Source: a virus (Duplodnaviria; Heunggongvirae; Uroviricota; Caudoviricetes). Taken from it: 64,000 nucleotides of DNA. Each line of letters opens with the position of its first letter. Position 1 is the first letter of the stretch. The position numbers and the translations under genes were made by a program. The notes under the pieces were generated by a model, which worked only from the letters and a program-made list of their open reading frames with translations, had not been told where the DNA came from and ran no database searches. Positions 16,012 through 49,477 of the stretch are shown in pieces. The stretch covers positions 89,730-153,729 of IMG/VR virus record IMGVR_UViG_3300012956_000001; one strand, 5' to 3'.

Positions 16012-17592
16012 ATGATCCGACTATATAACCTATTATTTGAAAGCACTGAGGAGTCTGCTCTAGATTATCTAGGCAGACTCATTCAGCAAAGTCCATTTGC
16101 TGGGAAGGTATTCCTGGCCGGCGGAGCTGTGCGTGATGAAATTTTAGGTCAACCAGTCAAGGACATTGATATTGTTGTTGCTATGCCCGATGGCGGTATT
16201 CAATTTGCAAATTGGATTACAAAAAAGGTCGGTGCATACAAGGATGGTGCCAATCCAGTAGTATATCCACGATTTGGCACCGCAAAGTTTAACCTTCGTG
16301 GTGTAACCCATAACGGTATTGATCTTTCGGGCATCGACATCGAATCTGTTATGACTCGTGGTGAAAAATATGAAACAGGATCTAGAAAGCCTGAAGTTGT
16401 ATATGCTGACCTAAAGGCCGATGCATTCCGCCGAGACCTTACGGTTAACTCACTGTACAAGGATTTGGTTACTGGTGAGATCATTGACCTAACTGGTCGA
16501 GGTCGAGCTGATATAGAAAATGGAATTGTTCGGACTCCATTAGATCCATCTGAAACGTTTGCTGATGATCCACTTCGTATGTTGCGAGCCATTCGTTTTG
16601 CAGTAAAGTACAATTGGAAAATGCCTATGTCTTTGATAAAGGCATTAAAGCAAAATGCATCGTCGCTAACAAACATCTCGTCAGAACGTATTCAGGACGA
16701 ACTTAACAAAATATTGATGACCAACAATCCAGATAAGGGACTCAAACTCTTATCGTATACCGGATTGATGAAACACATTATTCCTGAGTTGGATGCAACT
16801 CGTGGTGTAACACAAAATGCACATCACAAGGATGACGTATTTAATCACATTCTTGAAGTCGTAAAGAACACTCCAAAGAATTTGCAGGCACGACTTGGTG
16901 CATTGTTCCATGATATTGCAAAGCCACAAACAAAGTCAATGGACGAAACGGGCAAGGTTCACTTCTACGGTCACGAAGATGCTGGCGCCGAGGTTGCTAT
17001 TGAGGCAATGAAGCGTCTTCGATATCCGAATGAAATGACAAATACGGTATCGACGCTGGTCAAACACCACATGCGATTGAAGGGCGGTGGTCCAGATGGA
17101 TCTAAGCTATCCGACAAGGCGCTTCGTAAGTTTATGGCAGAAATTGGACCGGATCTAGAGCCAGCGTTGATGTTAATGCACGCAGATAACATCTCACATG
17201 CGGCCGCATCGTCTATGCCAAATCAGATAGAACGGTTGTATGATCGAATGAAGAATCTAAAACAGCCAGTTGCTGGTCCACCTAAGTTACCTGTGAATGG
17301 TAACGACATCATCAAGATGCTTGGAATTAAGCCCGGTCCTATATTACGTGACTTGCTTCAGGCCGTACAAGATGCGTGGTATGAAAATCCAGATATTGAT
17401 GCAGCTACAGCAATGGGTGTCGTTAAGAAGCAGTATGAGAAATTATCTGGTAGTGATACATCAGATACCGACATCATGAATCAAACGGTTAAGAACCCAG
17501 AAACCGGCAATGACATTCTAATCCGCACGGCATTACAATACGATGATCGACACCCAGCAAAACAAGCAGCACTAAAACGAATCAAAAAATAA
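16012..17592 (+). CDS. cca: Class II tRNA nucleotidyltransferase (CCA-adding/poly(A) polymerase family) with HD domain and C-terminal NPET module
   Basis: Motif A 'AGGAVRDEILGQPVKDIDI', flexible loop 'RGEKYETGSRKP', 'RRDLTVNSL', motif D 'DDPLRMLRAIRF', 'ISSERIQDELNKIL', HD 'LFHDIAKP'. Confidence 0.92.
   Translation: MIRLYNLLFESTEESALDYLGRLIQQSPFAGKVFLAGGAVRDEILGQPVKDIDIVVAMPDGGIQFANWITKKVGAYKDGANPVVYPRFGTAKFNLRGVTHNGIDLSGIDIESVMTRGEKYETGSRKPEVVYADLKADAFRRDLTVNSLYKDLVTGEIIDLTGRGRADIENGIVRTPLDPSETFADDPLRMLRAIRFAVKYNWKMPMSLIKALKQNASSLTNISSERIQDELNKILMTNNPDKGLKLLSYTGLMKHIIPELDATRGVTQNAHHKDDVFNHILEVVKNTPKNLQARLGALFHDIAKPQTKSMDETGKVHFYGHEDAGAEVAIEAMKRLRYPNEMTNTVSTLVKHHMRLKGGGPDGSKLSDKALRKFMAEIGPDLEPALMLMHADNISHAAASSMPNQIERLYDRMKNLKQPVAGPPKLPVNGNDIIKMLGIKPGPILRDLLQAVQDAWYENPDIDAATAMGVVKKQYEKLSGSDTSDTDIMNQTVKNPETGNDILIRTALQYDDRHPAKQAALKRIKK
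17470..17589 (+). repeat. NPET protein module, copy 1 (C-terminus of CCA enzyme)
   Basis: DIMNQTVKNPETGNDILIRTALQYDDRHPAKQAALKRIKK; coordinates approximate. Confidence 0.85.
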
Positions 17593-17619
17593 ACCCGCCT
17601 TACGGCGGGTTTTTTATTT
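17591..17619. terminator. Bidirectional intrinsic terminator between convergent genes
   Basis: AAACCCGCC-TTAC-GGCGGGTTT stem with an A-tract upstream and a T-tract downstream. Both convergent stop codons (17590-92 and 17614-16) lie at its edges. Confidence 0.9.
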
Positions 17620-18348
17620 GTACTTGTCTACTATTTGTTGTGCTAGTTTGTGAGCTGGATGATCTTCGTCATATTTAAGAGCAGTACTTATCAATATTTT
17701 ATTGTCTGTATTTGGATTTACTATTGTTTGACTCAAAATCTTAGACATATCTTTTTGATTAGATTGGGTTGATTTCGGTTGGTGTCCAACCGATGCCAAA
17801 AACTTGTTAACTGCATCTTGTGGCATTTCACCAAGATCTTTATATGGTGCGGGAGTAACAAAATGCTCATCGGTAAGATTTGCTAGTGATTTGCCGGCAG
17901 CATCATTGTCAATCACAGCAATAGTATGCTTATTTAGAATAGCAAACCATGACTTCAAAACTTTTGGATTGTTTCCCAATACGGCGATTACCGGAAGACC
18001 AGCGTTGTGAATTTTCACCGCATCAAAAATGCCTTCGGTAACAAATAGATTTGGGTTGTCCGCATCAATAAATTCAGTACCCCAAACCGCTAACTTTGCG
18101 GTTTTTTCGCTTTCTTTCGTAACCCATGTAAAGTATTTAGCTGACAATGAGTTGGTATGATCTTTCTTGTCGCCCATTGGATTGTATCGCTGATATCCAA
18201 CCAATTGACCGGACAAGTTATATAGCAAGAATGTTGCAAGTCCGTTTTCTTTATCTAAGATAACATGTATGTTATCTGGATCAAGTCCACGTTCTCGTAA
18301 GTGAGCTTCTATGCTATTAATTTGTGATGGGGTTAGTGAATCAGACAT
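17614..18348 (-). CDS. Toprim-domain (primase-core-like) protein lacking a Zn finger, with C-terminal NPET module
   Basis: 'FVTEGIFDAVKI...VIAVLG...IAVIDNDAAG' are the Toprim E and DxD motifs. SD GGAG on the minus strand. The only substantial minus-strand gene in the window. Confidence 0.8.
   Translation of the reverse strand: MSDSLTPSQINSIEAHLRERGLDPDNIHVILDKENGLATFLLYNLSGQLVGYQRYNPMGDKKDHTNSLSAKYFTWVTKESEKTAKLAVWGTEFIDADNPNLFVTEGIFDAVKIHNAGLPVIAVLGNNPKVLKSWFAILNKHTIAVIDNDAAGKSLANLTDEHFVTPAPYKDLGEMPQDAVNKFLASVGHQPKSTQSNQKDMSKILSQTIVNPNTDNKILISTALKYDEDHPAHKLAQQIVDKYK
17617..17742 (-). repeat. NPET protein module, copy 2 (C-terminus of Toprim protein)
   Basis: KILSQTIVNPNTDNKILISTALKYDEDHPAHKLAQQIVDKYK. 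Confidence 0.85.
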
Positions 18349-27478: not shown

Positions 27479-28768
27479 ATGTCGTTAAGCGATATTACCG
27501 GATCTAGATGGGAATCAGCATCATTTAACGCGGCATTTTTAACTGGATCGCTGCCTGGTAGTGGCGTGCAAGGATATTGGTCTGCAAGTCTTGGATCATT
27601 TTCGTCGTCAGTATCATCGTCTGCACAATTATCAACACGATATTTAACTATCGGTGCACCATCTAGTTCAGTTACCTTAAATTTAGGCTCGTTGGTGGTA
27701 TCTTGGTCACAGTCATCAACTGAAGATCCGGGTCTTATTGATGCCATTTTATTTGGTGCTGCCCAAGCACAGTCATTTGGTTTGCAAGTTCAATTTTCGC
27801 CAATTACATTTACGTACGCAGAACTATCATCATCGTTAAATCGACGTGGTATATATGCAAATGCTCACAGTGGATCTCCACAACTATCACTAGAGCCTGT
27901 ATCAGGCAATATATATGAAACATGGCCAGGCGATATTTGGCTATTAGATAAAAATAGTTACATCGGCGAAAACGGCTATCGATTTGCTGATGAAAACAAA
28001 ACTGATAATTCTGTATATGTTGCGCGTCCTATATTATCTCGTGTAGATGAGACATCCGAATCTGTTGTTGCAAGATATTCAACTACCAATGGTCCAAAAA
28101 ATATAAACGTAGGTATATCATCATTAGTTACTAATGGCTGGCATATCACGATAAACAGCGGAACCATGTCAGGCAGTGGTTGGATGAATGCATCGTGGTC
28201 TGGTGGTATTTACATGCCAAATAGTGGAACCGTTGCAATATTTGGCAATAAAAACTTTGAAGTGCCTGGTGGATACATTAGTGCATCTACCTATCTTGGA
28301 ACAATTGAGTCATCATCATATGCATTAACTGCCTCATACGCTATGAACGGCGCCGGTCCAAGTGTATCTGCATCGTACGCACTCACTGCATCGTACTCAA
28401 CAACGGCAACAACATTAGTACCACTATATACATTTACAGCCTCCGTGGCTACAACCCCCACATATCAAGTAGTATCCAGTGGATCTCAACACTTGCCAAC
28501 TGGGGTGTATGTAATGTCGTTAATGGCAACCAATGACAATCATATCAATGAAGTATATACTGGTCAGTTGTCATGGTATGCAGGCAATACCAATAGTACA
28601 TCGTCGGATGAAATATCAATGCACCGCGCCGGCGTCTCGCCGGGAAGCATGTCATTGTATTTACAGACACGGCATCGTACTGGAAACGTTCCCATGTACT
28701 TAGAACTTGCTTCAAATTTGTCACATCCAACGGCGTCATATTACTTTAGCTTTGTGAAAATTTTATGA
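27479..28768 (+). CDS. Putative tail fibre/adhesin
   Basis: 429 aa carrying 'SSYALTASYA' repeats shared with other fibres; C-terminal globular beta domain. Confidence 0.6.
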   Translation: MSLSDITGSRWESASFNAAFLTGSLPGSGVQGYWSASLGSFSSSVSSSAQLSTRYLTIGAPSSSVTLNLGSLVVSWSQSSTEDPGLIDAILFGAAQAQSFGLQVQFSPITFTYAELSSSLNRRGIYANAHSGSPQLSLEPVSGNIYETWPGDIWLLDKNSYIGENGYRFADENKTDNSVYVARPILSRVDETSESVVARYSTTNGPKNINVGISSLVTNGWHITINSGTMSGSGWMNASWSGGIYMPNSGTVAIFGNKNFEVPGGYISASTYLGTIESSSYALTASYAMNGAGPSVSASYALTASYSTTATTLVPLYTFTASVATTPTYQVVSSGSQHLPTGVYVMSLMATNDNHINEVYTGQLSWYAGNTNSTSSDEISMHRAGVSPGSMSLYLQTRHRTGNVPMYLELASNLSHPTASYYFSFVKIL

Positions 28769-31512
28769 GAGTTAAGAATCTAATTGCAGAAACCGGAAGT
28801 ATTGATCAGATCATAGGAAGCATTGTATCTGCATCGTATGCAGTAACCGCATTGAGTGCCTCGTATGCGCCTGGGTCCCCTTCAATTTCAGCCTCATTTG
28901 CCACGACGGCATCTTATGCAACAATAGCACAAAACGTATTAGGTAGTATTACATCGGCATCATATGCACTAACTGCAAGTTACGCAACAAACACACCCAC
29001 AGTTAACTTTAGTACCGGATCATACACTGGCAGCTTTACTGGATCATTACAAGGCAACGCAACAACAGCAACTACTGCGAGTTACGCATCAACTGCACTT
29101 AGTGCATCCTATGCGCCTGGTTCTCCAAGTGTGTCTGCCTCATATGCCGCTACATCGTCGTATGCTACTGTTGCACAAAACGTATTAGGTTCTATTACGT
29201 CGGCGTCGTATGCATTAACTGCGTCATATGCACAAAATGGTACAGGATACCCAACACAGAATTCAACCACGGGTCAATTTGCATATTATAGCGGCAGTGC
29301 ATTGTCTGGTTCTAATTTAGTTGCTATATCTGGTGGCTTGTTAACATTAGATAGAGACATACAAATCAATTCAATACCATACAGATTTCCATCTGGATCG
29401 GTGTCACGCGGAGTTTTACAATTTGTAACTGGATCAGTTTATATTCCGGCTACAACAGCAAGTAGAACTGCATGGACCAACAACAGTTCAACAAACGGCG
29501 GCACATTTGGAAATTCTATCGACTCTGCCGCAGGAACTCGATGGGATACAAATGGAATACAGACTCTTGGACAAGTATACAGTGTAAATTTTGGGTCTGC
29601 TATAAACATTAAAAAGTATATTATGGACACTACCAATAGTGCCGGCGACTCGCCCTTAATATACAGCATTTCCTCATCGTTAGATAATGCTAGCTGGACC
29701 ATTATTGGCAACCGAAGTGGATCTACGGTGGATATTAACGAATTTACATCGTCTATTAATGCACAATATCTACGATTTGGCATGGTACAGGGTCGTGGTG
29801 GTGCATTTTGGTCTATCCACGAGTTTAATGTTATTTTGGATGCGGTTGCTGCCTCGACAGCCGATGTAATTTGGAATAATACAGTACCAACTGCATCTAT
29901 TGCTACTACGGCATCATTTGCTACAACCGCATCGTTTGCTACAAGTGCATCTTATGCGCCGGGGTCTCCTAGCGTATCCGCATCGTTTGCAACTACTGCT
30001 TCATATGCTACGGTAGCACAAAACGTTCTTGGATCTATTGAATCTGCGTCGTATGCTACGGTAGCACAAAACGTACTTGGGTCAATTGAATCGGCCTCGT
30101 ATGCATTAACAGCATCATATGCATTAAACGGCGGCGGGTCATCTACACTATCTGGATCATTGTCTGCTAGACAGAAAAGTTATATTGACGACTACTTTAC
30201 AGGCAGTACGTTAAATTCTAAGTGGAAAGACTATAACATTGGTACATCTACCAAGCAAGTATACAATGGTGCGTTGTGGGTTAAGATACCAGCCAACTCA
30301 GGAAACAACGTTCGTGGTATAATACAACCTATTGATGATCCGTCTGGATCGTGGGTGTATTCGACCAATGTCAATTTATACATTAATGATAACAATACTC
30401 GACTCTCTGGATTAATGTTGTATGAGAGCAGTTCTGGCAAATTTGCTGTATTGGCACCAGCCCGAGCAACTTCACCTGCATATGTACATGGTGCGTTGTA
30501 CTACACAAATGCGACTACGTTTCAAACGTGGTTTGCAAGCGAAAGTATAGAAGCACTACAACTGGTTACCAATACAACGTATCTAGAGGTCAGCAAGTCC
30601 GCCGGCATTATTCACTATAAGATTGGCAATTCACCCGATGGTGTGTATACTATAGCAACTCGATCTGTTACGGATTGGTTCACTGGTGGACCAACCTACG
30701 TTGGCTTAACATCAAATACTACAAACGTTACCTTTGGATGTACATCTTCGTTCTCGTATTTTATTAGTGGATCAACACCAGGCACAGTTAAAACAGATAA
30801 TGTGTTGTCTAGTATAACATCTGCATCATATGCGGCAACTGCCTCGTATGTTATTAACTCTGGCATGGGACCAGATATCGCACCGACTTCTCCAACATTA
30901 TATGACGACGAATTTATTACGTCAACGTTGAATCCAAAATGGGTATTGCGATCTGATGCGTCAAGTAGCGCACAATCTGTAAAATATAACAAATTTGGTA
31001 CGTGGTTTTCATACTTTCACTCAGGCACTATAGTTGGCCAGAGCGGCATTCATATAACCCAAGCTGCAACATTTTCTATAAATGATACCATCTATACAAA
31101 AATGAGTGTAGACGGAACACAAAACTACCACGGTGCATTTGTAATTGTATTAGATAATATATCAAAATTTGCATCTGGTTCTGGATTTAGATTTGGATAC
31201 GAGTATAGAAATACCGAAACTAGATTTTATGTAGATACAGTTACTAGTGGTTCTATTACATATGCAGCAATAGGATTTGATAGTACTAGCAAAACATCCG
31301 GCCCGCAGTATATCAGAGCAAAAAGAATAGCTGCATCAACTGTAGAATTTATGATATCTAGTGATGGTGTATCATATGAATACGCTGGTGTAGCGACCAT
31401 ACCAAATTTTATAGCAACAGACGTAGGTTTAAATTTAACTAACGGCGGCGCAACACAGGCTTCACAATGTGGAATAGATTGGATTAGATGGAACTGGTCG
31501 GAAGGCATGTAA
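28765..31512 (+). CDS. Tail fibre/adhesin with ASYA repeats, F5/8-type C (CBM32-like) domain and two ConA-like domains
   Basis: 'TRWDTNGIQ...NFGSAINIK...SSSLDNASW...AQYLRF...WSIHEFNV' (~29455-29835) is discoidin-like. Two 'DD(Y/E)F..STLN.KW' beta-sandwich domains (~30181-30770 and ~30898-31495). Confidence 0.7.
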   Translation: MRVKNLIAETGSIDQIIGSIVSASYAVTALSASYAPGSPSISASFATTASYATIAQNVLGSITSASYALTASYATNTPTVNFSTGSYTGSFTGSLQGNATTATTASYASTALSASYAPGSPSVSASYAATSSYATVAQNVLGSITSASYALTASYAQNGTGYPTQNSTTGQFAYYSGSALSGSNLVAISGGLLTLDRDIQINSIPYRFPSGSVSRGVLQFVTGSVYIPATTASRTAWTNNSSTNGGTFGNSIDSAAGTRWDTNGIQTLGQVYSVNFGSAINIKKYIMDTTNSAGDSPLIYSISSSLDNASWTIIGNRSGSTVDINEFTSSINAQYLRFGMVQGRGGAFWSIHEFNVILDAVAASTADVIWNNTVPTASIATTASFATTASFATSASYAPGSPSVSASFATTASYATVAQNVLGSIESASYATVAQNVLGSIESASYALTASYALNGGGSSTLSGSLSARQKSYIDDYFTGSTLNSKWKDYNIGTSTKQVYNGALWVKIPANSGNNVRGIIQPIDDPSGSWVYSTNVNLYINDNNTRLSGLMLYESSSGKFAVLAPARATSPAYVHGALYYTNATTFQTWFASESIEALQLVTNTTYLEVSKSAGIIHYKIGNSPDGVYTIATRSVTDWFTGGPTYVGLTSNTTNVTFGCTSSFSYFISGSTPGTVKTDNVLSSITSASYAATASYVINSGMGPDIAPTSPTLYDDEFITSTLNPKWVLRSDASSSAQSVKYNKFGTWFSYFHSGTIVGQSGIHITQAATFSINDTIYTKMSVDGTQNYHGAFVIVLDNISKFASGSGFRFGYEYRNTETRFYVDTVTSGSITYAAIGFDSTSKTSGPQYIRAKRIAASTVEFMISSDGVSYEYAGVATIPNFIATDVGLNLTNGGATQASQCGIDWIRWNWSEGM
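28822..30129 (+). repeat. Coding ASYA/'YATVAQNVLGSI(T/E)SAS' repeat blocks
   Basis: Two blocks (~28822-29238 and ~29892-30129), including a 48-bp-period tandem near 30001-30105. Confidence 0.85.
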
Positions 31513-31569
31513 ATTCAGCATCAATGCTGAATTAGGGACTACTTATTTGAGTAGTCCCCTTTCTTTTGG
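31512..31569 (+). terminator. Two tandem perfect 9-bp hairpins; the second is followed by a T-tract and contains TACTTAT (31540-31546)
   Basis: aattcagca-tcaa-tgctgaatt (31512-31533) and gggactact-tatttg-agtagtccc (31535-31558), then ctttctttt. Confidence 0.7.
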
Positions 31570-31580: not shown

Positions 31581-34500
31581 ATGGATTTATTATTTGAAGC
31601 AAACCGCTTGGCGGGTGAATTGGCAAACGAACTTCGTAGATCGTTGATATCAGAGGCGGAAGTCAAGTCTGATAAACGAATCATTGTTGCGTACTCTGGC
31701 CACTTTCAGCCGTTTCACCAAGGACATTTCAAGATTTACAAGACATTGGTCAAGAAGTTTGGCCGTGATAATGTATACATCACAACAACGAATGAAACCG
31801 ATGAACTAGAAAATCCAATGACCTATGCTGATAAGAAGCAAGTCATTATGAAAATGTTTGATATTGAAGACGGTAAGTTTCAAGAAGTTCAAAATCCATA
31901 TGTTCCTGCCGAACTACTACAAAAGTTCAATCCAAAGGCCACATCATTCGTTACAGTTGTATCTGATGAAGATGCCGCGGTATTGTCAAAGAGCAAATAC
32001 TTCCATCCGTATGTTGAGTCACCATCACTACAAACATATGACAAGGCCGCATACTATCTGACGGTCCCAGAACTTCGTGCTACTATTGGTGGTCAGCACC
32101 TTACTGGTCCACAAATTATGCAAGTACTTGGGTCATCAAAGACATCTGACGCTATGAAAGAAAAGATCTTCCAGGCATTATACGGCAAGTCCGATGCTGG
32201 TATCTTGGATATTATTTCTAACAAGGCAAAGGATGGTGCCGAAAAAGTTGATGGAAAGTTTACCAAAACCCAAGCAACTGGACAGGCAAACAAGACATCA
32301 TACAAAAAGACAGATGCTGGTGGACAAGATACTGATGCAGATGAAGATGGTAAGTCCGACAAGACGCCGCCTATGCAACGAATGATTGTCAACCCCGACA
32401 CAGGTCGTGAGATCAAGGTACAATCTGCATTGAAGTATCCTCGTTGGAAGCCTGTATACAAGAAGGCAGAGAAGTTCTTAAAGGCCACAGGCATTGATCG
32501 TAAGGATCGTGTTAAGGAGCCCGAAGTTAACCAGCGATATCGTGCACGCGAAAAGAACATGAAGAAGGACGAGTTAGCAATATATCTTGGTGATATGTTG
32601 TCTGAACACCTACACAGCCAGTTTAGCCGAGATGGGGTGACATTAAATGTGCCCGGACTTGGCGAGGTGTTACTTAGGCTCGGACAAAACAGAACCGACG
32701 AAGTAACTCGATATCCCAAGTCAACATTACTAACCGAAGGTGCACCAAAGAGTCATATTCAACATCCATATGATGATGTTGAGATGTCGTTTAGTGACCT
32801 TAAGGGATTGGTATCACAGGCACTAACTGGTAATCTTGAGAGTGCAACAGAAAAAACTGACGGTCAGAACATTTTGTTTACCGTACGTGACGGTAAGGTA
32901 GTGTTTGCTCGCAATACACAACATACCAAAGGTAATGGTGCGGCAGCGATGGATGCCCAAGAATTCAAAGACTTTTTTGCCAAGCATGGCGATCAAGTAT
33001 CTGATTCATTTGGCCGGGCCGCCCAAGACGTACAATCAGCCGTCGATGCACTACCAGATGCAATGAAAAAGGCAGTATTCAATAACGGATCTCGGTTCGC
33101 ATCAGCCGAAATTCTAAACTCGCAGTTAGCAAATACCATTCCATATAACACAAATGTTATCATGTTGTTGAGTGTTCGGGACTATGATCCTGAAACCGGC
33201 AATCCTACCAGTATGGACATTAATGCTGCTGATGCATTAGCCGATGTTATGTCTCGTGCAGGTACAGACAAGCAGCCAACATACAAAATCACGGGCAAAA
33301 ACAAAATACAGTTTGGCACAAGTGATACAGATCGCCAAAATGCACAAAAATACACAGATGCGATCACAGAGTTACAAGCACGATATAATCTAACAGATGA
33401 CAACACCATCGGTGATTTCTTGGCAGGTCAATGGTCTGAACTTATCGATGCACAAAATGCTTGGACTCCTGAAGAGAAGGAATTGCTTCTACGTCGATTT
33501 GTTGCGGGCGATAAATCCTTTGGTGTTCGAAGCATCAAAGATCCAGCAAAGAAAGAACTGTTTTATGAGCTAGAAAAGCCTAGCAAAGAATTGCAAGCAA
33601 AGTTCATTCGATCTATCAAATCGATTGTTTTAAACGTTGGTGCTGATGCACTAAATCGTGCCACCAATCTACTTGGTCAATCTGATGGTACCCGAGAGAA
33701 GTTAAAGGCTAAGTTTAAAGATGCGGTAGAGGCCATCAAAAAGAGTGGCCAGCCTGAGTACATTGATAAGACTAAGAAGGAACTTGATCACCTAAAGGAC
33801 ATTGGAATTGACAAAATTTCTCCAGCCGAAGGCATTGTGTTCACTCACAATGGACAATTGTACAAGTTTACTGGTGCGTTTGCCCCGGTCAATCAAATTG
33901 TTAGCATTAACACGTACAAGTTAAATCCAGCCGCACGAAGTGCCGATGATGAAGTCGGAGGAGAATCGCCTACATCAGCTGCTGGTACACAACCTAAGCG
34001 TGCCCCAGTAGTCGTATATCCCGGCCGATTCCAGCCGTTCCATGCCGGTCACTACTCTGTCTACAAACACCTAGTAGACAAATATGGCAAAGAAAACGTA
34101 TATATTGGCACCAGTGATAAAACAGATGGCGCCAAGTCACCATTTAACTTTAACGAAAAGCAAAGTATTATGTCACGAATGTTCGGCATTCCTACAGATA
34201 AAATTGTTCAAGTTAAAAACCCATATGCACCAAAAGAAATTACAGATCCGTTCCCACAGGACACGCCGTTCATTACAGCGCTCAGTGAAAAAGAAGCAGA
34301 ACGATTGAGTGTAGGCAATTATTACAAGCCATTGCCGCAAGATGGCAATTCTCTTGGTAACTACAGAGATGTTGGATACTTTACTGTTGTGCCCGACTTT
34401 GAAGCGGATGTTGATGGACAAAACATCTCTGGCACCGCAATCCGATCTGTATTGAGTGATCCTCAACGATCAGTTGAAGACAAGAAGAAAATGTTTGCTA

Positions 34501-35810
34501 CAATGTACGGTAAATTTGATCAAGATGTATTTGACTTAATCACCAGCAAACTAGCCACGGCGACTGATCCGGTGAAGAAGACACGAAAGGCAGCAATGGC
34601 CGATCCAGCCACCCAGCGCCAGTCCGCACAGCCAGATGACCGTGCAAAAGGCAAGGGCGATATACTCAATAAGACCATCCGCAACCCAGAAACGGATAAC
34701 GATATTTTGGTTAAAACGGCTCTCAAGTATCCTAAAGATCACCCAGCATACAAGGCAGCCGCTAAATTAGTTCGCAACGAAGTAGTTATTTTAGAAGGCG
34801 GTAATGCTGTAGAAGCTAATAGCAAAATTCCAAATGAATTTGCACAGAGCACGGCACAGCATGCCGCTAACATGGTTGGATTTGGTAAAATTGCTGGTAC
34901 ATTGGTAGGCAGTACGTTCAAGCCTATTATGAACGATCTCGATTTTGCAACCGATATTGATGACGTAAAAAAGGTCATCGGATACACGGGTACAGACAAG
35001 AAAGAATTCTTTGTAGCATTGAAACAGTATCTTACCGATAAGGGCATCGAGGCCACGATTACACCGGGCTTTCAACAGTTTAGTTTAAGTGTCCCGTTGA
35101 CCGATTCAACTGGCAAACAACAACCTGCCGTGGGCGATGATGGTAAGTCTGGCTCGCAGCCAGGCAATGTACAGATTGATTTTATGATGGGCGACCTACA
35201 GTTCATGAAGCGATTCTTAACAAACGGCGACACAAGCAATACCAGTTCATCATATCGTAACAACTTGTTTATGGTCATTCTACCAAATTTGGCAATGGAC
35301 ACAGATACGCCCGGTGTCAAGAAACGATTCTTGATTAACATGCGAGATGGTATCTACGAGGAATACTTTACAGAGAAGCCAAACGGTAAGCGTGAAACGG
35401 TTAGTAAAAAGCTTGTATCTAATGATGTAGACTTTCTTGCCAAGGTAATGTTTGGTCCTAAGTCTACATTTGCCGAAATTGATACATATGAAAAGTTAGT
35501 AGATCGACTACAAAAGCCTGATGTTTCGTTCCGTGATAAGTTGCCAAAGATTGTGGCCGATTACGAAACTATGTTGACAAAGATGAAAATGGCACCTGCT
35601 AAGCAATTGCCATCGGCCGACAAGAAGGCACCGTCAGGCGAAAAGCAGGCCGAACCAGATGCAGTAAAGCAGGTGCCGTCTGATGTCGGATCGAAGAAAG
35701 TTCGCAATCCAGAAACGGACAATGACATCTTGGTTAAGACCGCATTAAAATATGATGCAGACCACCCCGCACACAAAGCAGCCGAAAAGGTTGTAAGGAA
35801 TACTAAATGA
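31581..35810 (+). CDS. Multidomain nucleotidyltransferase (putative polyprotein): HxGH cytidyl/adenylyltransferase, KxDG ligase-like, second HxGH domain, pol-beta-like NTase, and three NPET modules
   Basis: ATG at 31581 (MDLLFE) preferred over GTG 31566. Motifs 'YSGHFQPFHQGH', 'EKTDGQN...EGIVF...YKFTG', 'YPGRFQPFHAGH...ISGTAIR', 'GSTFKPIMNDLDF...VQIDF'. Confidence 0.8.
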   Translation: MDLLFEANRLAGELANELRRSLISEAEVKSDKRIIVAYSGHFQPFHQGHFKIYKTLVKKFGRDNVYITTTNETDELENPMTYADKKQVIMKMFDIEDGKFQEVQNPYVPAELLQKFNPKATSFVTVVSDEDAAVLSKSKYFHPYVESPSLQTYDKAAYYLTVPELRATIGGQHLTGPQIMQVLGSSKTSDAMKEKIFQALYGKSDAGILDIISNKAKDGAEKVDGKFTKTQATGQANKTSYKKTDAGGQDTDADEDGKSDKTPPMQRMIVNPDTGREIKVQSALKYPRWKPVYKKAEKFLKATGIDRKDRVKEPEVNQRYRAREKNMKKDELAIYLGDMLSEHLHSQFSRDGVTLNVPGLGEVLLRLGQNRTDEVTRYPKSTLLTEGAPKSHIQHPYDDVEMSFSDLKGLVSQALTGNLESATEKTDGQNILFTVRDGKVVFARNTQHTKGNGAAAMDAQEFKDFFAKHGDQVSDSFGRAAQDVQSAVDALPDAMKKAVFNNGSRFASAEILNSQLANTIPYNTNVIMLLSVRDYDPETGNPTSMDINAADALADVMSRAGTDKQPTYKITGKNKIQFGTSDTDRQNAQKYTDAITELQARYNLTDDNTIGDFLAGQWSELIDAQNAWTPEEKELLLRRFVAGDKSFGVRSIKDPAKKELFYELEKPSKELQAKFIRSIKSIVLNVGADALNRATNLLGQSDGTREKLKAKFKDAVEAIKKSGQPEYIDKTKKELDHLKDIGIDKISPAEGIVFTHNGQLYKFTGAFAPVNQIVSINTYKLNPAARSADDEVGGESPTSAAGTQPKRAPVVVYPGRFQPFHAGHYSVYKHLVDKYGKENVYIGTSDKTDGAKSPFNFNEKQSIMSRMFGIPTDKIVQVKNPYAPKEITDPFPQDTPFITALSEKEAERLSVGNYYKPLPQDGNSLGNYRDVGYFTVVPDFEADVDGQNISGTAIRSVLSDPQRSVEDKKKMFATMYGKFDQDVFDLITSKLATATDPVKKTRKAAMADPATQRQSAQPDDRAKGKGDILNKTIRNPETDNDILVKTALKYPKDHPAYKAAAKLVRNEVVILEGGNAVEANSKIPNEFAQSTAQHAANMVGFGKIAGTLVGSTFKPIMNDLDFATDIDDVKKVIGYTGTDKKEFFVALKQYLTDKGIEATITPGFQQFSLSVPLTDSTGKQQPAVGDDGKSGSQPGNVQIDFMMGDLQFMKRFLTNGDTSNTSSSYRNNLFMVILPNLAMDTDTPGVKKRFLINMRDGIYEEYFTEKPNGKRETVSKKLVSNDVDFLAKVMFGPKSTFAEIDTYEKLVDRLQKPDVSFRDKLPKIVADYETMLTKMKMAPAKQLPSADKKAPSGEKQAEPDAVKQVPSDVGSKKVRNPETDNDILVKTALKYDADHPAHKAAEKVVRNTK
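32373..32483 (+). repeat. NPET protein module, copy 3
   Basis: MQRMIVNPDTGREIKVQSALKYPRWKPVYKKAEKFLK (most diverged copy). Confidence 0.75.
34659..34778 (+). repeat. NPET protein module, copy 4
   Basis: DILNKTIRNPETDNDILVKTALKYPKDHPAYKAAAKLVRN, immediately followed by EVVILE|GGNAV. Confidence 0.85.
35688..35807 (+). repeat. NPET protein module, copy 5 (C-terminus of 1410-aa protein)
   Basis: GSKKVRNPETDNDILVKTALKYDADHPAHKAAEKVVRNTK. Confidence 0.85.
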
Positions 35811-36415
35811 GTGATCGTATAGAACAAAAAGTCGATGCTATGCGTAGTCAAGTAGCATCTAAGTTAAAGAAATGGGATCGTCCAATATGGGGTTACGTGC
35901 CCGAGGCCGAACCCACACGCGCTGAAGGTGAATTGTGGGAAGATTCTGATGGTAAGCAATGGACCGTAAAAGATGGCATCAAGCAGTCCATTACAAAATT
36001 GCAAGATGCAAAGACGCCGTGGTGGTGTCCAAAGTGTGAACATTCTATGGCACACAAATTTGACACTAAGTTTTATCGATTGTACGGTCAGTGCTATGAT
36101 TGTACCATCAAAGAGCACACCCAAATGATGATCGATGGTACATGGGAAGCGTTTGAGAAAAAGAAAGTCAGAGAGAATGAAAAGGCATTCTTAAAAGATA
36201 AAATTCAAGAACGCCAGGATTACATTCGCACATTTAAGGTACCACAGGTACACTTTGAAAATGGTGGATGGGAAGAACTCGCTAAGATTGAACACTTCAA
36301 GGACATGTTTGTTACACTCAGAGAAGACATAAAGTTCTGTGAAGATCGACTTCTTGCTATTGCAGAAGAAGAAGAAGCATTAGAAACCAAGGAGATTACA
36401 AATGACAACGCCTAA
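35807..36415 (+). CDS. Hypothetical protein with Zn-ribbon-like CxxC pairs
   Basis: 'WWCPKCEH...CYDC'; ATGA coupling to the previous gene. Confidence 0.7.
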   Translation: MSDRIEQKVDAMRSQVASKLKKWDRPIWGYVPEAEPTRAEGELWEDSDGKQWTVKDGIKQSITKLQDAKTPWWCPKCEHSMAHKFDTKFYRLYGQCYDCTIKEHTQMMIDGTWEAFEKKKVRENEKAFLKDKIQERQDYIRTFKVPQVHFENGGWEELAKIEHFKDMFVTLREDIKFCEDRLLAIAEEEEALETKEITNDNA

Positions 36416-37123: not shown

Positions 37124-38743
37124 ATGACTGCTCCAGCAACACAGAAGGTAGATTTAAAATCACTCATTCGGTCTGAGTACATTCGATGTGCAACAGATAA
37201 AGCATACTTCATGCGAAAGTATTGCTTTATCCAGCACCCGACCAAGGGACGAATGTTATTTGATTTGTATGGATATCAAGAAGAGGCATTGTCTACATTT
37301 GACCAAGAAGATTATACTATTATTCTGAAGGGTCGTCAGATTGGTCTATCAACCGTCGTGGCCTGTTTGGCATTACAAATGATGTTGTTTTCAAAGGACA
37401 AAAACGTTCTTGTTATTGCTACCAAACAAGAAACTGCAAAGAACCTAATTACTAAAGTTAGATTTGCATTTGACAATTTACCTGTGTGGTTACAGGTGCC
37501 GGTTGTTGAAAACAATAAGCTAAGTCTACGATTTGCTAACGGGTCACAAATCAAGGCATCGTCGTCATCGGGAGATGCAGGTCGATCAGAAGCCGTATCA
37601 TTGCTAGTACTTGACGAAGCGGCATTCATTAAGAACGCAGCGGAAATTTGGACGGCTGCACAGGCTACGTTGGCTACGGGTGGTAAGGCTATTTTGATTT
37701 CTACGCCAAACGGTATTGGTAACTTCTTCCATAAGAAGTATGTGGAAGCCGAAGAATTTAAGGGTCGTAATAAGGACGGTGCGTTTTATCCGATCAAGTT
37801 AGATTGGCGTGTACACCCAGATCGTGATGATAAGTGGGAACAGACGCAACGAACAGTTCTTGGTGATCGAGACTTTAGACAGGAATATGAAGCCGAGTTC
37901 TTGGGATCTGGTAACACTGTTATTGACTCTGATCTTATTGAGTTTTATCGACAGACTCACAAAAAAGATCCAATTGCTAAGAAAGGACCAGGCGGCGATC
38001 TATGGGTGTGGGAATATCCAGATTATACCAAGTCGTATATTGTTGTTGCAGACGTTGCACGTGGAGAAAATAGTGAAATGGGCGACTTCTCGGCCATGCA
38101 CGTTATTGATGCCGTAACGTGTACACAGGTCGCTGAGTTTAAAGGTCGATTGCCTACCACCGAGTTTGGACATTTGCTAGTTGCGACATCAACTGAATAT
38201 AACGACGCGTTATTAGTTGTTGAAAATGGTGGTATTGGATGGGCAACCATCCAAACGATCATTGATCGTCAATACAAGAATTTGTTCTATATGACGGACG
38301 ATCTAAAGTATCTTGATCCAGAGGATGTGCGTAGTAACAAGTTGTATCGTGCAGATAAACGAGCCATCGCTGGATTTACTACGTCATCACGAACTCGACC
38401 ATTGATTATATCAAAACTAGATCAATATATGCGAGACAAGTCGGTAATTATCCGTTCCCAACGTACGTTAGACGAATTGCTTACATTTGTGTGGGAAAAT
38501 GGAAAGCCCATTGCTACGGATGGTTTTCACGACGACTTAGTAATGTCAATGTCAATTGGATTGTGGATTCGAGATACGGCACTTCAGCTACACCAGAAGG
38601 GACTAGAGTATACAAAACTTTCGTTGGATAAGATGAATCGAGTCAATCAATACGATGGTGTTTATATGCCTGGTGGATTGACCCAAGATCCATACAAGAC
38701 CATAATTAACGGCGCTGAAGAGGATTTTAGATGGCTCCTATAA
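37124..38743 (+). CDS. gp17: Terminase large subunit (T4 gp17-like)
   Basis: Walker A 'LKGRQIGLST', Walker B 'VLDEAAF', 'ISTPNG', nuclease 'VADVARG' and 'HDDLVMS'. Confidence 0.95.
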   Translation: MTAPATQKVDLKSLIRSEYIRCATDKAYFMRKYCFIQHPTKGRMLFDLYGYQEEALSTFDQEDYTIILKGRQIGLSTVVACLALQMMLFSKDKNVLVIATKQETAKNLITKVRFAFDNLPVWLQVPVVENNKLSLRFANGSQIKASSSSGDAGRSEAVSLLVLDEAAFIKNAAEIWTAAQATLATGGKAILISTPNGIGNFFHKKYVEAEEFKGRNKDGAFYPIKLDWRVHPDRDDKWEQTQRTVLGDRDFRQEYEAEFLGSGNTVIDSDLIEFYRQTHKKDPIAKKGPGGDLWVWEYPDYTKSYIVVADVARGENSEMGDFSAMHVIDAVTCTQVAEFKGRLPTTEFGHLLVATSTEYNDALLVVENGGIGWATIQTIIDRQYKNLFYMTDDLKYLDPEDVRSNKLYRADKRAIAGFTTSSRTRPLIISKLDQYMRDKSVIIRSQRTLDELLTFVWENGKPIATDGFHDDLVMSMSIGLWIRDTALQLHQKGLEYTKLSLDKMNRVNQYDGVYMPGGLTQDPYKTIINGAEEDFRWLL

Positions 38744-39240
38744 CCACGGCACAAATACCCAGACATCTGATGCCACAGATTCCAAAGAACAAACTTTCTG
38801 AGTTTTGTTCCTATTTAGAAACCAAGAATATTACTAGCAAAACTAGTAAACGACCCGTCAAATGGTTGGTTCCGGTACAAAAGCACGTTAACCAAGATAA
38901 GGTAGACAATATTATGTCAGACCCATCGGTTATTGATGCTTCTCCGATTATTGTAACTGCCGAGGGCTATATTGTAGATGGTCACCACAGATGGATTGCT
39001 GCTAAAAAATTGGGTATTACTGAGATAAACTGTATAGTTTGTGACTGTCCCCTAAAGGAATTTCTAAAACTGGCGCATGATTTTGATCATAGTTTTGTAA
39101 AGTCTGTTAGTGAACTTACTACTTATGGTAGATTAGGTGTACTGTTAGAATCTCGTAGGGACATTGACCGCCGCATAAATTCTAAGTTACGTGAATACAT
39201 CAGTCGTGAAATCAAAAATATACTAGAGATAAACTCATGA
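38731..39240 (+). CDS. ParB/Sulfiredoxin-domain protein
   Basis: 'LVPVQ...PIIVTAEGYIVDGHHRWIAA' is the ParB/Srx catalytic motif. Confidence 0.8.
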   Translation: MAPITTAQIPRHLMPQIPKNKLSEFCSYLETKNITSKTSKRPVKWLVPVQKHVNQDKVDNIMSDPSVIDASPIIVTAEGYIVDGHHRWIAAKKLGITEINCIVCDCPLKEFLKLAHDFDHSFVKSVSELTTYGRLGVLLESRRDIDRRINSKLREYISREIKNILEINS

Positions 39241-39545: not shown

Positions 39546-39590
39546 TACATTGCTTGATAAAAGTCTACAAATAACTAACAGGGGTAATTG

Positions 39591-43147: not shown

Positions 43148-43735
43148 ATGCCACAACTATTAGTAGAATACTTTCCATTAGAATATGACGCACGTGCTGT
43201 CTTGACTGAGGCCACGGCCAATCCCAATGCGCCCATTAAGGTCAAGGCCATTTTGCAACGTGCTGATGCTAAGAATCAAAACGGTAGAGTATATCCAAAA
43301 GAAATTTTGATGCGAGAAGCCTCAAAGTATGAACAAGAATTTGTTGGTCAGCGCCGCGCACTTGGCGAGCTGGACCATCCAGATTCGACCGTTGTCAATT
43401 TGAGAAACGTATCACATAACATCAATGAAGTACATTGGGAAGGTGCAGACTTAATGGGCACCATTGAAGTGTTGTCCACCCCGTCAGGCAATATTGTTAA
43501 GGAATTGATGAAAAATGGTATTCGATTGGGTGTTTCTTCTCGTGGTGTTGGGTCTATTAAAAATCTTGGCGAGGGTGCCGTTGAAGTAGATGATGACTTT
43601 AGTTTAATCTGTTTTGATATCGTTTCGAATCCTTCCACGCATGGCGCCTTCTTGAATGAAGGTGTTGGTGCACAGGCCAATCCATATGCTAATATAGAAA
43701 AGTTAGTGTATGACTTTTTTGCTGAGCTAAAATAA
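43148..43735 (+). CDS. gp21: Prohead core protease (T4 gp21-like)
   Basis: 'KNQNGRVYP', 'ALGELDHP', 'GVSSRGVGS', 'FDIVSNPSTHGA'. Confidence 0.95.
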   Translation: MPQLLVEYFPLEYDARAVLTEATANPNAPIKVKAILQRADAKNQNGRVYPKEILMREASKYEQEFVGQRRALGELDHPDSTVVNLRNVSHNINEVHWEGADLMGTIEVLSTPSGNIVKELMKNGIRLGVSSRGVGSIKNLGEGAVEVDDDFSLICFDIVSNPSTHGAFLNEGVGAQANPYANIEKLVYDFFAELK

Positions 43736-49065: not shown

Positions 49066-49090
49066 AGTTGTTACCTTTGTGGAGTTTTGT

Positions 49091-49477
49091 ATGAAATTAT
49101 CGGAAATATTGAACCGAATTGACGAGGATGCACAACGAGATGCTATGTTGGCACAAACAGTAAAGAATCCAGAAACGGATCAAGATATTACTGTAAAAAC
49201 TGCTTTGTCGTATCCAAAAGAACATCCTGCTCGAAAGGCGGCGGCAAAGATTTATGCACAGTTTATGCAAAAGGCAAATCCAGCATCTGCTCAATTTAAA
49301 CCTCGACCACGACCAATGCGACCAGAAGATGATCCTTGGTATGCTCAATATGGCGATGATGCATATGATGCAAAGCGAGACTATGAACTATCTGGTGATG
49401 ACAGTTTGTTACCTCCTAGCCTCCAACAAACTACGCGATCATATAGACCCGGCCGACTCACACGCCGTAGATTTTAA
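49091..49477 (+). CDS. Small protein: capsid-targeting-like leader plus NPET module (copy 6, ~49145-49260)
   Basis: SD GGAG then ATG 49091. MKLSEILNRIDE|DAQRDAMLAQTVKNPETDQDITVKTALSYPKEHPARKAAAKIY. Confidence 0.8.
   Translation: MKLSEILNRIDEDAQRDAMLAQTVKNPETDQDITVKTALSYPKEHPARKAAAKIYAQFMQKANPASAQFKPRPRPMRPEDDPWYAQYGDDAYDAKRDYELSGDDSLLPPSLQQTTRSYRPGRLTRRRF

What the first reader, a model, noticed from the sequence alone, without database searches (positions are those of the whole stretch)
31581..35810. 1410-aa protein looks like a protease-processed polyprotein of tagged nucleotidyltransferases
Order: MDLLFE|...SLISE| leader; HxGH domain 1; NPET; ...TLLTE|GAP (32724-32741); KxDG ligase-like domain; HxGH domain 2; NPET; VVILE|GGNAV (~34782-34797); pol-beta-like NTase; NPET. 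The L/I-x-E sites match those of the capsid (SLLTE, QLVSE), scaffold and protease (AVLTE, AFLNE), and T4 gp21 cleaves at (I/L)-x-E. Cleavage would release three products, each with exactly one NPET module near its C-terminus, just like the separate CCA and Toprim proteins. Three unrelated nucleotidyl-transfer folds in one head-processed precursor is, to my knowledge, undescribed.
Basis: partly seen in the sequence, partly recalled or inferred. Interest (0 to 1): 0.88.

Follow-up and report, generated by a model that had tools for sequence, protein, structure and literature searches.

The report
Phage head-cargo polyprotein of RNA-repair enzymes
An uncultured T4-like phage encodes one 1409-residue protein that strings an RNA ligase, two HxGH nucleotidyltransferases and a Pol-X-like nucleotidyltransferase together at sequence motifs that match its head protease's cutting site, so it is probably loaded into the capsid, cut into three tagged enzymes and delivered with the DNA, though no protein-level data exist.

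Summary
Window 31581-35810 is one 1409-aa ORF with this order: leader (LFE6, ISE25); HxGH domain 1; NPET1; an 80-aa linker with three L-x-E sites ending LTE386|G; an RNA-ligase-fold KxDG domain; a Pro/Glu-rich tether; HxGH domain 2; NPET2; ILE1072|GG; a Pol-X-like palm+thumb domain; NPET3.

Comparative data favour the polyprotein reading but do not prove it:
- Relatives shuffle the same cassettes.
- A hydrophobic-hydrophobic-x-Glu motif directly precedes the ligase domain in 114/118 relatives and the Pol-beta domain in 21/21. P3 is Leu/Ile, P2 varies, P1 is Glu.
- AlphaFold gives both junctions low confidence.
- The ligase-to-HxGH tether almost never has the motif (1/84).
- The phage encodes a T4 gp21-family protease (Peptidase_S77).
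- The gene sits just upstream of the head-gene block (terminase, portal, protease) in most of the 80 related viral contigs kept.

NPET is an unannotated 44-residue module found in 572 protein clusters, mostly at protein termini. It is attached to effector-type enzymes (ADP-ribosyltransferase, GNAT, Mom, topoisomerase IB, Toprim, HAD, kinases, CCA enzyme).

No cleavage or packaging has been measured. The idea is not wholly new: T4 capsid-targeting sequences, Alt, and 'polyvalent proteins' are precedents. This scan has also noted similar cargo polyproteins in at least 68 other genomes. The NPET tag and a packaged RNA-repair kit look new.

The parts
31581..35810 (+). Whole 1409-aa precursor ORF (P0001), including the stop codon
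   Evidence: the start is supported by the conserved MDLLFE N-termini of homologues
31581..31655 (+). N-terminal leader, aa 1-25, with L-F-E6|A and I-S-E25|A. Candidate capsid-targeting propeptide.
   Evidence: The leader is conserved in P0002-P0029. An N-terminal [LI]-x-E occurs in 72% of the family and 47% of NPET proteins, against 12% of genome ORFs.
31668..32360 (+). HxGH nucleotidyltransferase domain 1 (about aa 30-260; H46-Q-G-H49). Its second motif is degenerate (LTGPQIM).
   Evidence: Pfam CTP_transf_like and phrog_3041. NCBIfam NMNAT models score far below their cut-offs. Motif check.
32367..32498 (+). NPET module 1 (aa 263-306)
   Evidence: profile hit of 97 bits; alignment A4
32499..32738 (+). 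Conserved linker, aa 307-386, with L-S-E342, L-G-E362 and L-T-E386|G
   Evidence: residues 379-389 have pLDDT below 50
32739..33923 (+). RNA-ligase-fold covalent nucleotidyltransferase domain (aa 387-781; motif I K425-T-D-G) with a helical insert
   Evidence: AF2 pLDDT 88.6. VIA Z 9.3-7.5 to RNA ligases, with DNA ligases lower. E46, K47, D49, G50 and the EG/K-x-T-G motifs are invariant in A1.
33924..33998 (+). Low-complexity tether between the ligase and HxGH2 (about aa 782-806), with no L/I-x-E
   Evidence: In homologues this tether is Pro/Glu/Thr/Lys-rich, and only 1 of 84 has [LI]-x-E.
33999..34652 (+). HxGH nucleotidyltransferase domain 2 (about aa 807-1024; H821-A-G-H824; ISGTAIR)
   Evidence: Pfam and phrog_395; NCBIfam; motifs
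34659..34790 (+). NPET module 2 (aa 1027-1070)
34782..34802 (+). Junction V-V-I-L-E1072|G-G
   Evidence: All 21 homologues have hydrophobic-x-E directly before GG(N/K/H). Residues 1060-1073 have pLDDT below 50.
34797..35612 (+). Pol-X-like (Pol-beta superfamily) palm+thumb nucleotidyltransferase domain (aa 1073-1344; G1110-S, D1119, D1121, D1200)
   Evidence: AF2 pLDDT 83.7. Foldseek E 6e-7 to Pol beta/lambda. VIA Z 9.6. A stand-alone 290-aa look-alike exists in AFDB.
35676..35807 (+). NPET module 3 (aa 1366-1409), at the very C-terminus
   Evidence: Predicted as a beta-hairpin plus helices at pLDDT about 80.
43148..43735 (+). Prohead protease of the T4 gp21 family, the presumed processing enzyme
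   Evidence: Pfam Peptidase_S77, E 1.3e-27; phrog_207
16012..17592 (+). CCA-adding/HD enzyme with the leader MIRLYNLLFE and a C-terminal NPET module
   Evidence: Homologues P0142-P0144 keep both the leader and the tag.
17614..18348 (-). Toprim protein with a C-terminal NPET module
49079..49477 (+). Small stand-alone NPET protein just after the capsid gene. The likely start is the internal MKLSE at 49091.
   Evidence: Homologues P0215, P0230, P0233 and P0235 start with MKLSE.

Best explanation
P0001 is a late-expressed cargo polyprotein of the phage head.

Proposed steps (all inferred):
1. The N-terminal leader acts like a T4 capsid-targeting sequence and brings the precursor into the prohead core.
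2. The gp21-family protease (43148-43735) cuts after L/I-x-E at residues 6 and 25, at 386 (probably also 342 and 362), and at 1072.
3. This releases three enzymes: HxGH1-NPET1; RNA ligase-HxGH2-NPET2, which stay joined by a Pro/Glu tether that lacks the motif; and Pol-X-like NTase-NPET3.
4. Each product ends in one NPET module, as the separately encoded CCA enzyme and Toprim protein do.
5. The products stay in the capsid and enter the host with the DNA. There they act as a ready-made RNA (tRNA) end-healing and sealing kit against host ribonuclease defences.

NPET is a portable terminal module whose molecular job is unknown. The candidates are retention or co-ejection with DNA, or docking to a common partner.

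Shown: the domain map, the folds, motif conservation, cassette shuffling, the protease family and the gene neighbourhood. Inferred: targeting, cleavage, packaging, ejection and RNA repair.
For: 1. The phage has a T4-type head: Peptidase_S77, Gp23 and Portal_T4. T4 gp21 cuts after L/I-x-E and removes capsid-targeting propeptides from Alt and the internal proteins (PMC9026906).

2. Junction motif. P3 is L/I in 112/114 ligase junctions and 19/21 Pol-beta junctions. P2 is variable and P1 is Glu, directly before the conserved Gly-Gly. The per-position background is 1.6%.

3. Both junctions have pLDDT below 50 next to well-predicted domains. A huge-phage homologue has the ligase domain without the motif, so the motif is not part of the ligase fold.

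4. There are two classes of linker. The ligase-HxGH tether is 20% Glu, yet only 1 of 84 has [LI]-x-E.

5. Relatives permute the cassettes, for example HxGH-NPET-HxGH-NPET-LIG-NPET-POLB-NPET and LIG-NPET-POLB-HxGH-NPET.

6. Of 373 NPET modules, 187 are at the C-terminus. Of the 160 internal ones, 112 are followed by hydrophobic-x-E within 14 residues, against 20% in random windows.

7. NPET partners are classic delivered-effector families: ADP-ribosyltransferase, GNAT, Mom, SAM lyase, Zeta/AAA_33 kinases, HAD, Toprim, ParB_N and topoisomerase IB.

8. N-terminal [LI]-x-E leaders are enriched in NPET proteins: 47% against 12%, Fisher p = 1e-11.

9. The gene order (this gene, p202, TerL, portal, p289, p247, protease) recurs: TerL follows it in 57 and portal in 44 of the 80 IMG/VR loci kept, and the same order holds in Microcystis phage Mel-JY01.

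10. RNA-repair reading. The ligase fold is closest to RNA ligases. The nearest homologue adds a cREC cyclic-phosphate domain. CCA, HAD and kinase proteins carry the same tag.
Against: - No protein-level evidence of any kind. The phage is uncultured, and no virion proteome of a relative was found.
- L/I-x-E is short, and a conserved i/i+2 pattern could also be a strand or a docking element.
- The sequences counted are related, so the ratios overstate the number of independent events.
- The AlphaFold constructs start only 8-13 residues before each site, so low confidence there is partly an end effect.
- Some relatives start directly with the HxGH domain and have no leader (20 of 109).
- A strong terminator-like hairpin lies 12 nt upstream of the start, and no T4-type late promoter is present.
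- In T4 the RNA-repair enzymes (Rnl1, Pnkp) are cytoplasmic, not virion, proteins (established knowledge).
- The specificity of this protease is assumed from T4.
Confidence: 0.55

Rival explanations
1. An uncleaved, cytoplasmic multi-enzyme RNA-repair protein. The domains work as one polypeptide in the infected cell. The hydrophobic-x-Glu-Gly-Gly element is a structural or docking linker. NPET is a nucleic-acid-binding or complex-forming module.
For: RNA ligase with Pol-beta NTase, CCA enzyme, cREC, kinase and HAD is a known cytoplasmic phage repair theme (PMC7824862; PMC9503650). Fusion of cooperating enzymes is common. Twenty family members lack an N-terminal leader. NPET sits at the N-terminus of topoisomerase IB proteins, where a DNA-binding role would fit.
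Against: This reading does not explain several observations:
- P3 = L/I and P1 = E are kept with a free P2 in low-confidence linkers, while the other linker class avoids the motif.
- Internal NPET modules are so often followed at once by the motif.
- NPET partners include enzymes that do not act on nucleic acids, such as ART, GNAT and SAM lyase.
- The gene keeps a fixed place just upstream of the head-gene block.
Confidence: 0.27
2. Packaged, but only trimmed at the N-terminus. The leader is removed and the roughly 155-kDa multi-enzyme protein stays whole in the capsid, as Alt does in T4. The internal motifs are not cut.
For: The leader evidence is the same as for the main reading. T4 head proteins contain uncut L/I-x-E sites inside folded regions (established knowledge). 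P0001 has three such in-domain sites, at 597, 903 and 1260.
Against: The junction motifs lie in segments of low predicted order and are far better conserved than the in-domain sites. Cassette permutation with one NPET per cassette suggests independent units.
Confidence: 0.12
3. A morphogenetic helper like T4 gp63 (RNA ligase 1), which also promotes tail-fibre attachment. On this reading the late-gene position next to fibre-like genes reflects an assembly role, not cargo.
For: The gene follows two fibre-like genes: 27479-28768 (phrog tail fibre) and 28765-31512 (discoidin domain). That T4 gp63 has this second activity is established knowledge.
Against: In relatives the conserved linkage is to the terminase, portal and protease genes downstream, not to fibre genes. 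This reading explains neither the leader, nor NPET, nor the junction motifs.
Confidence: 0.03

Closest known systems
T4 internal head proteins IPI-III and Alt: a capsid-targeting propeptide removed by the gp21 prohead protease at L/I-x-E
   Same: - The same protease family (Peptidase_S77), with gp23-type capsid and gp20-type portal proteins.
- A short N-terminal leader ending in L-x-E.
- The predicted cargo is enzymes that act on the host at entry. Some NPET proteins carry an Alt-like ADP-ribosyltransferase domain.
   Different: - T4 cargo proteins are single units trimmed at their ends. Here several enzymes sit in one precursor with internal junction sites.
- There is an extra conserved terminal module (NPET) that T4 lacks.
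- The enzymes are RNA-repair types, which in T4 are not virion proteins.
Polyvalent proteins of phages and conjugative elements (Iyer, Burroughs, Anand, de Souza, Aravind 2017; PMC5512222)
   Same: - Many unrelated effector-type enzymatic domains in one phage polypeptide, encoded next to virion genes.
- Proposed to be delivered with the DNA and processed into units.
- Shared domain repertoire: Pol-beta NTases, ARTs, GNATs, Toprim, ParB, Zeta-type kinases.
   Different: - None of the signature domains (MuF, metallopeptidase, LPDs) is detected by Pfam.
- Processing would be by the head-maturation serine protease at short linear motifs, not by a built-in metallopeptidase.
- That paper says the 2H domains of polyvalent proteins never associate with RNA ligases. 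Here an RNA ligase is the conserved core.
Phage RNA-repair systems: T4 Rnl1/Pnkp, and RNA ligase with RlaP Pol-beta NTase, CCA enzyme and cREC (PMC7824862; PMC9503650)
   Same: An RNA-ligase-fold KxDG enzyme combined with a Pol-beta-superfamily NTase. A CCA-adding enzyme is in the same genome, a cREC domain is in the closest homologue, and HAD and kinase partners carry the same tag.
   Different: - Neither the ligase nor the NTase reaches any Pfam or NCBIfam model, including RlaP.
- The ligase is always paired with an HxGH nucleotidyltransferase, a pairing not mentioned in the passages I read.
- The genes lie in the head module with leaders and tags, rather than in early or middle operons.
Extensively processed head and ejection proteins of phiKZ, 201phi2-1 and SPN3US
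   Same: A gp21-related protease cuts many head proteins after Glu at short motifs. Propeptides carry several redundant sites (PMC9026906), like the three-site linker 307-386 here.
   Different: Those phages use S/A-x-E motifs and mostly non-enzymatic inner-body or ejection proteins. No NPET-type tag is known there.

Membership tests
T4-type capsid-targeted, gp21-processed head cargo | The genome encodes a gp21-family (Peptidase_S77) prohead protease with gp23/gp20-type head genes | tested here: met
   Pfam Peptidase_S77 E 1.3e-27, Gp23 E 6.6e-73, Portal_T4 E 2.3e-71
T4-type capsid-targeted, gp21-processed head cargo | A short N-terminal propeptide ending in L/I-x-E | tested here: met
   MDLLFE6|A and SLISE25|A. 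Conserved in homologues and enriched against genome ORFs.
T4-type capsid-targeted, gp21-processed head cargo | The protein is present in virions and is cleaved at the predicted sites | not testable with these tools
   The phage is uncultured, and no virion proteome of a relative was found.
Polyvalent proteins (PMC5512222) | Two or more unrelated effector-type catalytic domains in one phage polypeptide, linked to virion genes | tested here: met
   HxGH twice, an RNA-ligase fold and a Pol-X-like fold; head-gene synteny
Polyvalent proteins (PMC5512222) | Signature domains such as MuF, Zn-metallopeptidase or LPD families | tested here: not met
   Pfam at E <= 1 finds only CTP_transf_like.
ATP-dependent RNA ligases (covalent nucleotidyltransferases) | Motif I lysine (KxDG) and the adenylyltransferase fold | tested here: met
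   K425-T-D-G is invariant in 30 homologues. VIA Z 9.3, rmsd 4.0 A over 186 residues to NgrRnl. The top 32 entries are nearly all RNA ligases.
ATP-dependent RNA ligases (covalent nucleotidyltransferases) | Sequence-profile membership of a named Rnl family | tested here: not met
   No Pfam, NCBIfam or PDB-profile hit for the domain.
NMN adenylyltransferase (NadM/NadR type) | The HxGH and ISxTxxR motifs | tested here: met
   Domain 2 has HAGH and ISGTAIR. Domain 1 has HQGH but a degenerate second motif, LTGPQIM.
NMN adenylyltransferase (NadM/NadR type) | A score over the curated equivalog cut-off | tested here: not met
   The best scores are 29.6 and 36.2 bits against cut-offs of 127-449, and only the first 60-70 residues align.
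Family X polymerases / Pol-beta superfamily NTases | G[GS], DxD and a third Asp, with a palm fold | tested here: met
   G1110-S, D1119, D1121 and D1200 are conserved in 20 homologues. Foldseek E 6e-7. VIA Z 9.6 over about 180 residues to Pol lambda 376-575.
Family X polymerases / Pol-beta superfamily NTases | The 8-kDa and fingers domains of true Pol X enzymes | tested here: inconclusive
   Only the palm and thumb ranges align. The domain is about 270 residues with nothing upstream except the junction.
RlaP (RNA-ligase-associated Pol-beta NTase) | A match to the family profile | tested here: not met
   No Pfam hit at E <= 1 for aa 1075-1409 other than a chance DUF. The functional analogy remains possible.

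The most novel reading that the evidence does not exclude
NPET is a portable terminal tag that marks a large, previously unrecognised set of capsid-delivered enzymes in uncultured T4-like phages. It occurs in at least 572 protein clusters. On this reading, this phage injects a complete, pre-made tRNA/RNA repair kit, cut from a polyprotein by the head protease: ligase-HxGH, a Pol-X-like NTase, a CCA-adding enzyme and a Toprim protein. Repair of host-inflicted RNA damage would then start before any phage gene is expressed.
Probability: 0.35. Interest if true: 0.8.

Novelty: new variant of a known kind. Interest (0 to 1): 0.64.

Why it matters
If correct, three things follow.
- Virion-delivered cargo would extend from host-modifying enzymes such as T4 Alt to RNA repair. 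Phages could then answer anticodon nucleases and other RNase defences at the moment of entry.
- There would be two sequence signatures for predicting head cargo in metagenomic phages: an L/I-x-E leader or junction, and the 44-residue NPET module.
- It would show how cassettes bounded by protease sites let phages shuffle enzymes within one gene.

The invariable pairing of an RNA-ligase-fold domain with an HxGH nucleotidyltransferase also points to an uncharacterised biochemical step.

Tried and rejected
- No cultured close relative to lean on. A megablast of the gene against 50,697 phage records found nothing. tblastn found only Microcystis phage Mel-JY01 and two huge uncultured phages.
- A literature search for Mel-JY01 found nothing. 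Searches for 'capsid targeting sequence' with 'polyprotein', and for virion-packaged RNA ligases, found no description of such a system.
- Profile searches of the ligase and Pol-beta alignments against PDB sequences gave nothing meaningful. The folds had to be found by structure.
- A word-indexed search for stand-alone Pol-beta-NPET proteins returned only NPET-tagged CCA enzymes. The idea that relatives encode each cassette as a separate gene with its own leader is therefore not supported for this domain. A 290-aa structural look-alike does exist in AFDB.
- Protein-atlas feature search of NPET3: no usable hit. The NPET1 segment (aa 255-320) had no Pfam hit at E <= 1; weak PheRS-core hits over the NPET3 region and the stand-alone protein (E 0.02-0.17) were treated as chance.
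- Complex prediction of the stand-alone NPET protein with NPET3, a test of homotypic docking, returned 'no answer'. That is neither for nor against.
- The T4 late promoter TATAAATA is not enriched in the window and is absent upstream of the gene.
- NMNAT as a firm function was rejected because scores are far below the curated cut-offs.
- I considered that the hydrophobic-x-E-G-G element is the first strand of the downstream domains. This is disfavoured by the low pLDDT there and by a homologue whose ligase domain lacks it, but it is not excluded.

Full report
**Context.** The window is bases 89730-153729 of a single 217,729-bp virus contig at 44% G+C. It carries a T4-type head module: large terminase (37124-38743), gp20-type portal (39588-41453), a Peptidase_S77 (gp21-family) prohead protease (43148-43735) and a gp23-type major capsid protein (47380-48984). 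A contractile-tail sheath gene lies further on. The target ORF (31581-35810, P0001, 1409 aa) follows two fibre-like genes and precedes a conserved 202-aa gene and the terminase.

**Observation.**
- Pfam and PHROGs recognise only the two HxGH (cytidylyltransferase-like) domains.
- NCBIfam places both nearest to archaeal/NadM-type NMN adenylyltransferases. The scores are only 30-36 bits against cut-offs of 127-449, and only the first 60-70 residues align. They are HxGH-superfamily enzymes of undetermined substrate.
- Domain 2 keeps both HAGH and ISGTAIR. Domain 1 keeps HQGH but has a degenerate second motif.
- The middle domain has no sequence match to any library or to PDB sequences.
- An AlphaFold model built on 30 homologues (pLDDT 88.6, pTM 0.84) aligns best with ATP-dependent RNA ligases: VIA Z 9.3 to Naegleria Rnl, 8.8 to Trl1, 8.2 to T4 Rnl1 and 7.7 to T4 Rnl2. 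DNA ligases come lower, at Z 5-6.7.
- Motif I (E-K425-T-D-G-Q) and the C-terminal EG.../K-x-T-G motifs are invariant.
- The last domain (pLDDT 83.7) matches the palm and thumb of Pol beta and Pol lambda, with Foldseek E 6e-7 and VIA Z 9.6 over about 180 residues. It has conserved G-S, D-x-D and a third Asp.

So three different nucleotidyl-transfer folds in one ORF is correct.

**The NPET module.** A profile of the three copies finds three more in this genome: the C-termini of a CCA-adding/HD enzyme and of a Toprim protein, and a 132-aa ORF just after the capsid gene.
- In the AlphaFold model NPET3 is a small unit, a beta-hairpin plus helices at pLDDT about 80. An approximately 20-residue low-confidence stretch separates it from the Pol-beta domain.
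- Neither Pfam nor the atlas names it; NCBIfam finds nothing in the stand-alone NPET protein.
- An exhaustive profile search of 1.84 billion representatives gives 572 clusters at E <= 1e-3 and 221 at E <= 1e-10.
- Among 61 non-ligase carriers, the partner domains are topoisomerase IB, Mom, Zeta/AAA_33 kinases, HAD phosphatases, Toprim, GNAT acetyltransferases, ADP-ribosyltransferase, SAM lyase, ParB_N and CCA enzyme.
- This is largely the repertoire described for proteins delivered with phage DNA (PMC5512222; PMC9503650). It includes enzymes that do not act on nucleic acids, which argues against NPET being simply an RNA-substrate-binding domain.
- Of 373 modules in the sequences held, 187 lie within 15 residues of the C-terminus, 26 are near the N-terminus and 160 are internal.

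**Evidence bearing on processing.**
The same units occur in different orders, for example HxGH-NPET-HxGH-NPET-LIG-NPET-POLB-NPET (P0008, P0009, P0013), HxGH-NPET-POLB-...-HxGH-NPET-LIG-NPET (P0010) and LIG-NPET-POLB-HxGH-NPET (P0022-24).
2. *Junction motif.* Directly before the conserved Gly-Gly that opens the ligase domain, 114 of 118 homologues have hydrophobic-x-Glu, with P3 = L or I in 112, a variable P2 and P1 = Glu. Before the Pol-beta domain the figure is 21 of 21, with L/I in 19. The per-position background is 1.6%. Tandem sites are common, for example ...FMTE GLLME GG.
3. *Predicted order.* Residues 379-389 and 1060-1073 are predicted with pLDDT below 50 next to confidently folded domains. 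The constructs begin close to these residues, so this is weak evidence. However, a 915-aa homologue in huge phage LR756508 has the ligase domain without the motif, so the motif is not needed for the fold.
4. *Two linker classes.* The other class, between the ligase and HxGH2, is Pro/Glu/Thr/Lys-rich with 20% Glu, yet carries [LI]-x-E in only 1 of 84 cases. A motif-bearing border and a motif-free tether are what a cleavage code predicts.
5. *Internal NPET modules.* They are followed by hydrophobic-x-Glu within 14 residues in 112 of 160 cases, against 20% of random windows. The median distance is 8 residues. Cleavage would therefore leave NPET at a C-terminus, its usual position in single-domain carriers.
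6. *Leaders.* The N-terminus MDLLFE|A...SLISE|A is conserved. Other subfamilies begin MNINKLFE, MDNINLLQE, MNIDRLFE and so on. [LI]-x-E within the first 16 residues occurs in 72% of the family and 47% of other NPET proteins, against 12% of this genome's ORFs (Fisher p = 1e-11). The CCA enzyme and its homologues begin MIRLYNLLFE. The capsid protein, the putative scaffold, the protease and a DUF5661 protein have similar leaders, and L-x-E is three to five times denser in the scaffold-region proteins.
7. *Synteny.* Among the 80 viral contigs kept, p202 follows this gene in 65, TerL in 57 and portal in 44; p289 (35), p247 (21) and the protease (21) are seen less often, as many loci are short. The order also holds in Mel-JY01. 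All three phage records with a homologue encode Peptidase_S77.

T4 gp21 cleaves after L/I-x-E, and T4 uses cleavable N-terminal capsid-targeting sequences to load internal proteins and Alt (PMC9026906).

**Function.** Several findings fit the described phage RNA-repair theme (PMC7824862; PMC9503650):
- the ligase fold is of the RNA-ligase type;
- it sits with a Pol-beta-superfamily NTase;
- the closest homologue (P0002, 69% identity) has a cREC cyclic-phosphate-processing domain inserted between the Pol-beta domain and NPET3;
- the CCA enzyme, HAD phosphatases and P-loop kinases carry the same tag.

The invariable ligase-HxGH pairing is unexplained.

**Limits.**
- Nothing here measures cleavage, packaging, ejection or activity.
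- The counted sequences are related, so the proportions are not independent trials.
- Twenty of 109 complete family members have NPET but no leader, 20 have a leader but no NPET, and 2 have neither. It is therefore unclear which feature, if either, does the targeting.
- A terminator-like hairpin (31537-31568) ends 12 nt before the start codon, and no T4-type late promoter is present.
- The homotypic NPET docking test gave no answer.

**Comparison and novelty.** The closest known systems are the T4 CTS/gp21-processed internal proteins and Alt, the polyvalent proteins of Iyer et al. 2017, and the heavily processed head proteins of phiKZ-like phages. This case differs in four ways:
- enzymes are joined at head-protease-type motifs inside one precursor;
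- a new terminal module is present;
- the content is RNA repair;
- the polyvalent-protein signature domains are absent.

This scan has already recorded comparable 'capsid-addressed, protease-cuttable cargo polyproteins' in at least 68 other genomes. These are AI notes that I did not test. The general phenomenon is therefore recurrent in uncultured T4-like phages, and this window adds the NPET tag and the repair-kit content.

I rate it a new variant of a known kind. The confidences are 0.55 for the processed-cargo reading, 0.27 for an uncleaved cytoplasmic enzyme, 0.12 for packaged but only N-terminally trimmed, and 0.03 for a gp63-like assembly role.

Noticed in passing
window 31537-31568: A G+C-rich inverted repeat (GGGACTACT...AGTAGTCCC) followed by TTTCTTTT, preceded by a second hairpin at about 31517-31536. 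It ends only 12 nt before the start codon of the polyprotein gene. The gene therefore depends on read-through or on a promoter overlapping the terminator.
   Followed up: no
window 38731-39240: A 169-aa ParB-like nuclease between the terminase and portal genes, with six L/I-x-E sites. It also matches the C-terminal part of phrog_3041, the same 678-position 'cytidyltransferase' profile whose N-terminal part matches HxGH1 of the polyprotein. In other phages, therefore, HxGH and ParB-like domains are fused. The huge-phage homologue in L083 (2623-5370) is ParB_N-HxGH-ligase.
   Followed up: partly
window 39237-39545: A DUF5661 protein of 102 aa with the leader MIKLSTLLTE|A, just upstream of the portal gene. 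DUF5661 also occurs as an N-terminal cassette in ligase-family relatives (P0087, P0166).
   Followed up: partly
window 45752-46027: A ribosomal protein bS21 homologue (Pfam Ribosomal_S21, E 5e-10) is encoded inside the head operon, between the protease and scaffold genes.
   Followed up: no
window 44642-45382 and genome 6961-7725 (outside the window): Two paralogous proteins of about 250 aa share an L-x-E-type leader and a GLDY(M/L)SFGR(W/Y)GK motif. Their function is unknown; they may be further head cargo.
   Followed up: no
window 35807-36415: The 202-aa gene directly downstream of the polyprotein gene follows its homologue in 65 of the 80 related viral contigs kept, always before the large terminase. 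No family match. It may be the small terminase or a partner of the polyprotein.
   Followed up: partly
homologues P0053, P0060, P0089, P0120: In these four relatives the ligase domain is preceded by L-L-V-Cys|GG instead of hydrophobic-x-Glu|GG. This recurrent Cys at P1 is unexplained.
   Followed up: no
window 41418-41453 (portal aa 607-618): The portal protein has S-I-L-E611|G-G-I near its C-terminus, the same kind of site as the VVILE|GG junction. T4 gp20 is not known to be cleaved.
   Followed up: no
window 8652-12980 and 19833-23012: Two other very large ORFs (1442 and 1059 aa) have above-average L/I-x-E density (12.5 and 14.2 per 1000 residues). They were not examined for cassette structure.
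   Followed up: no
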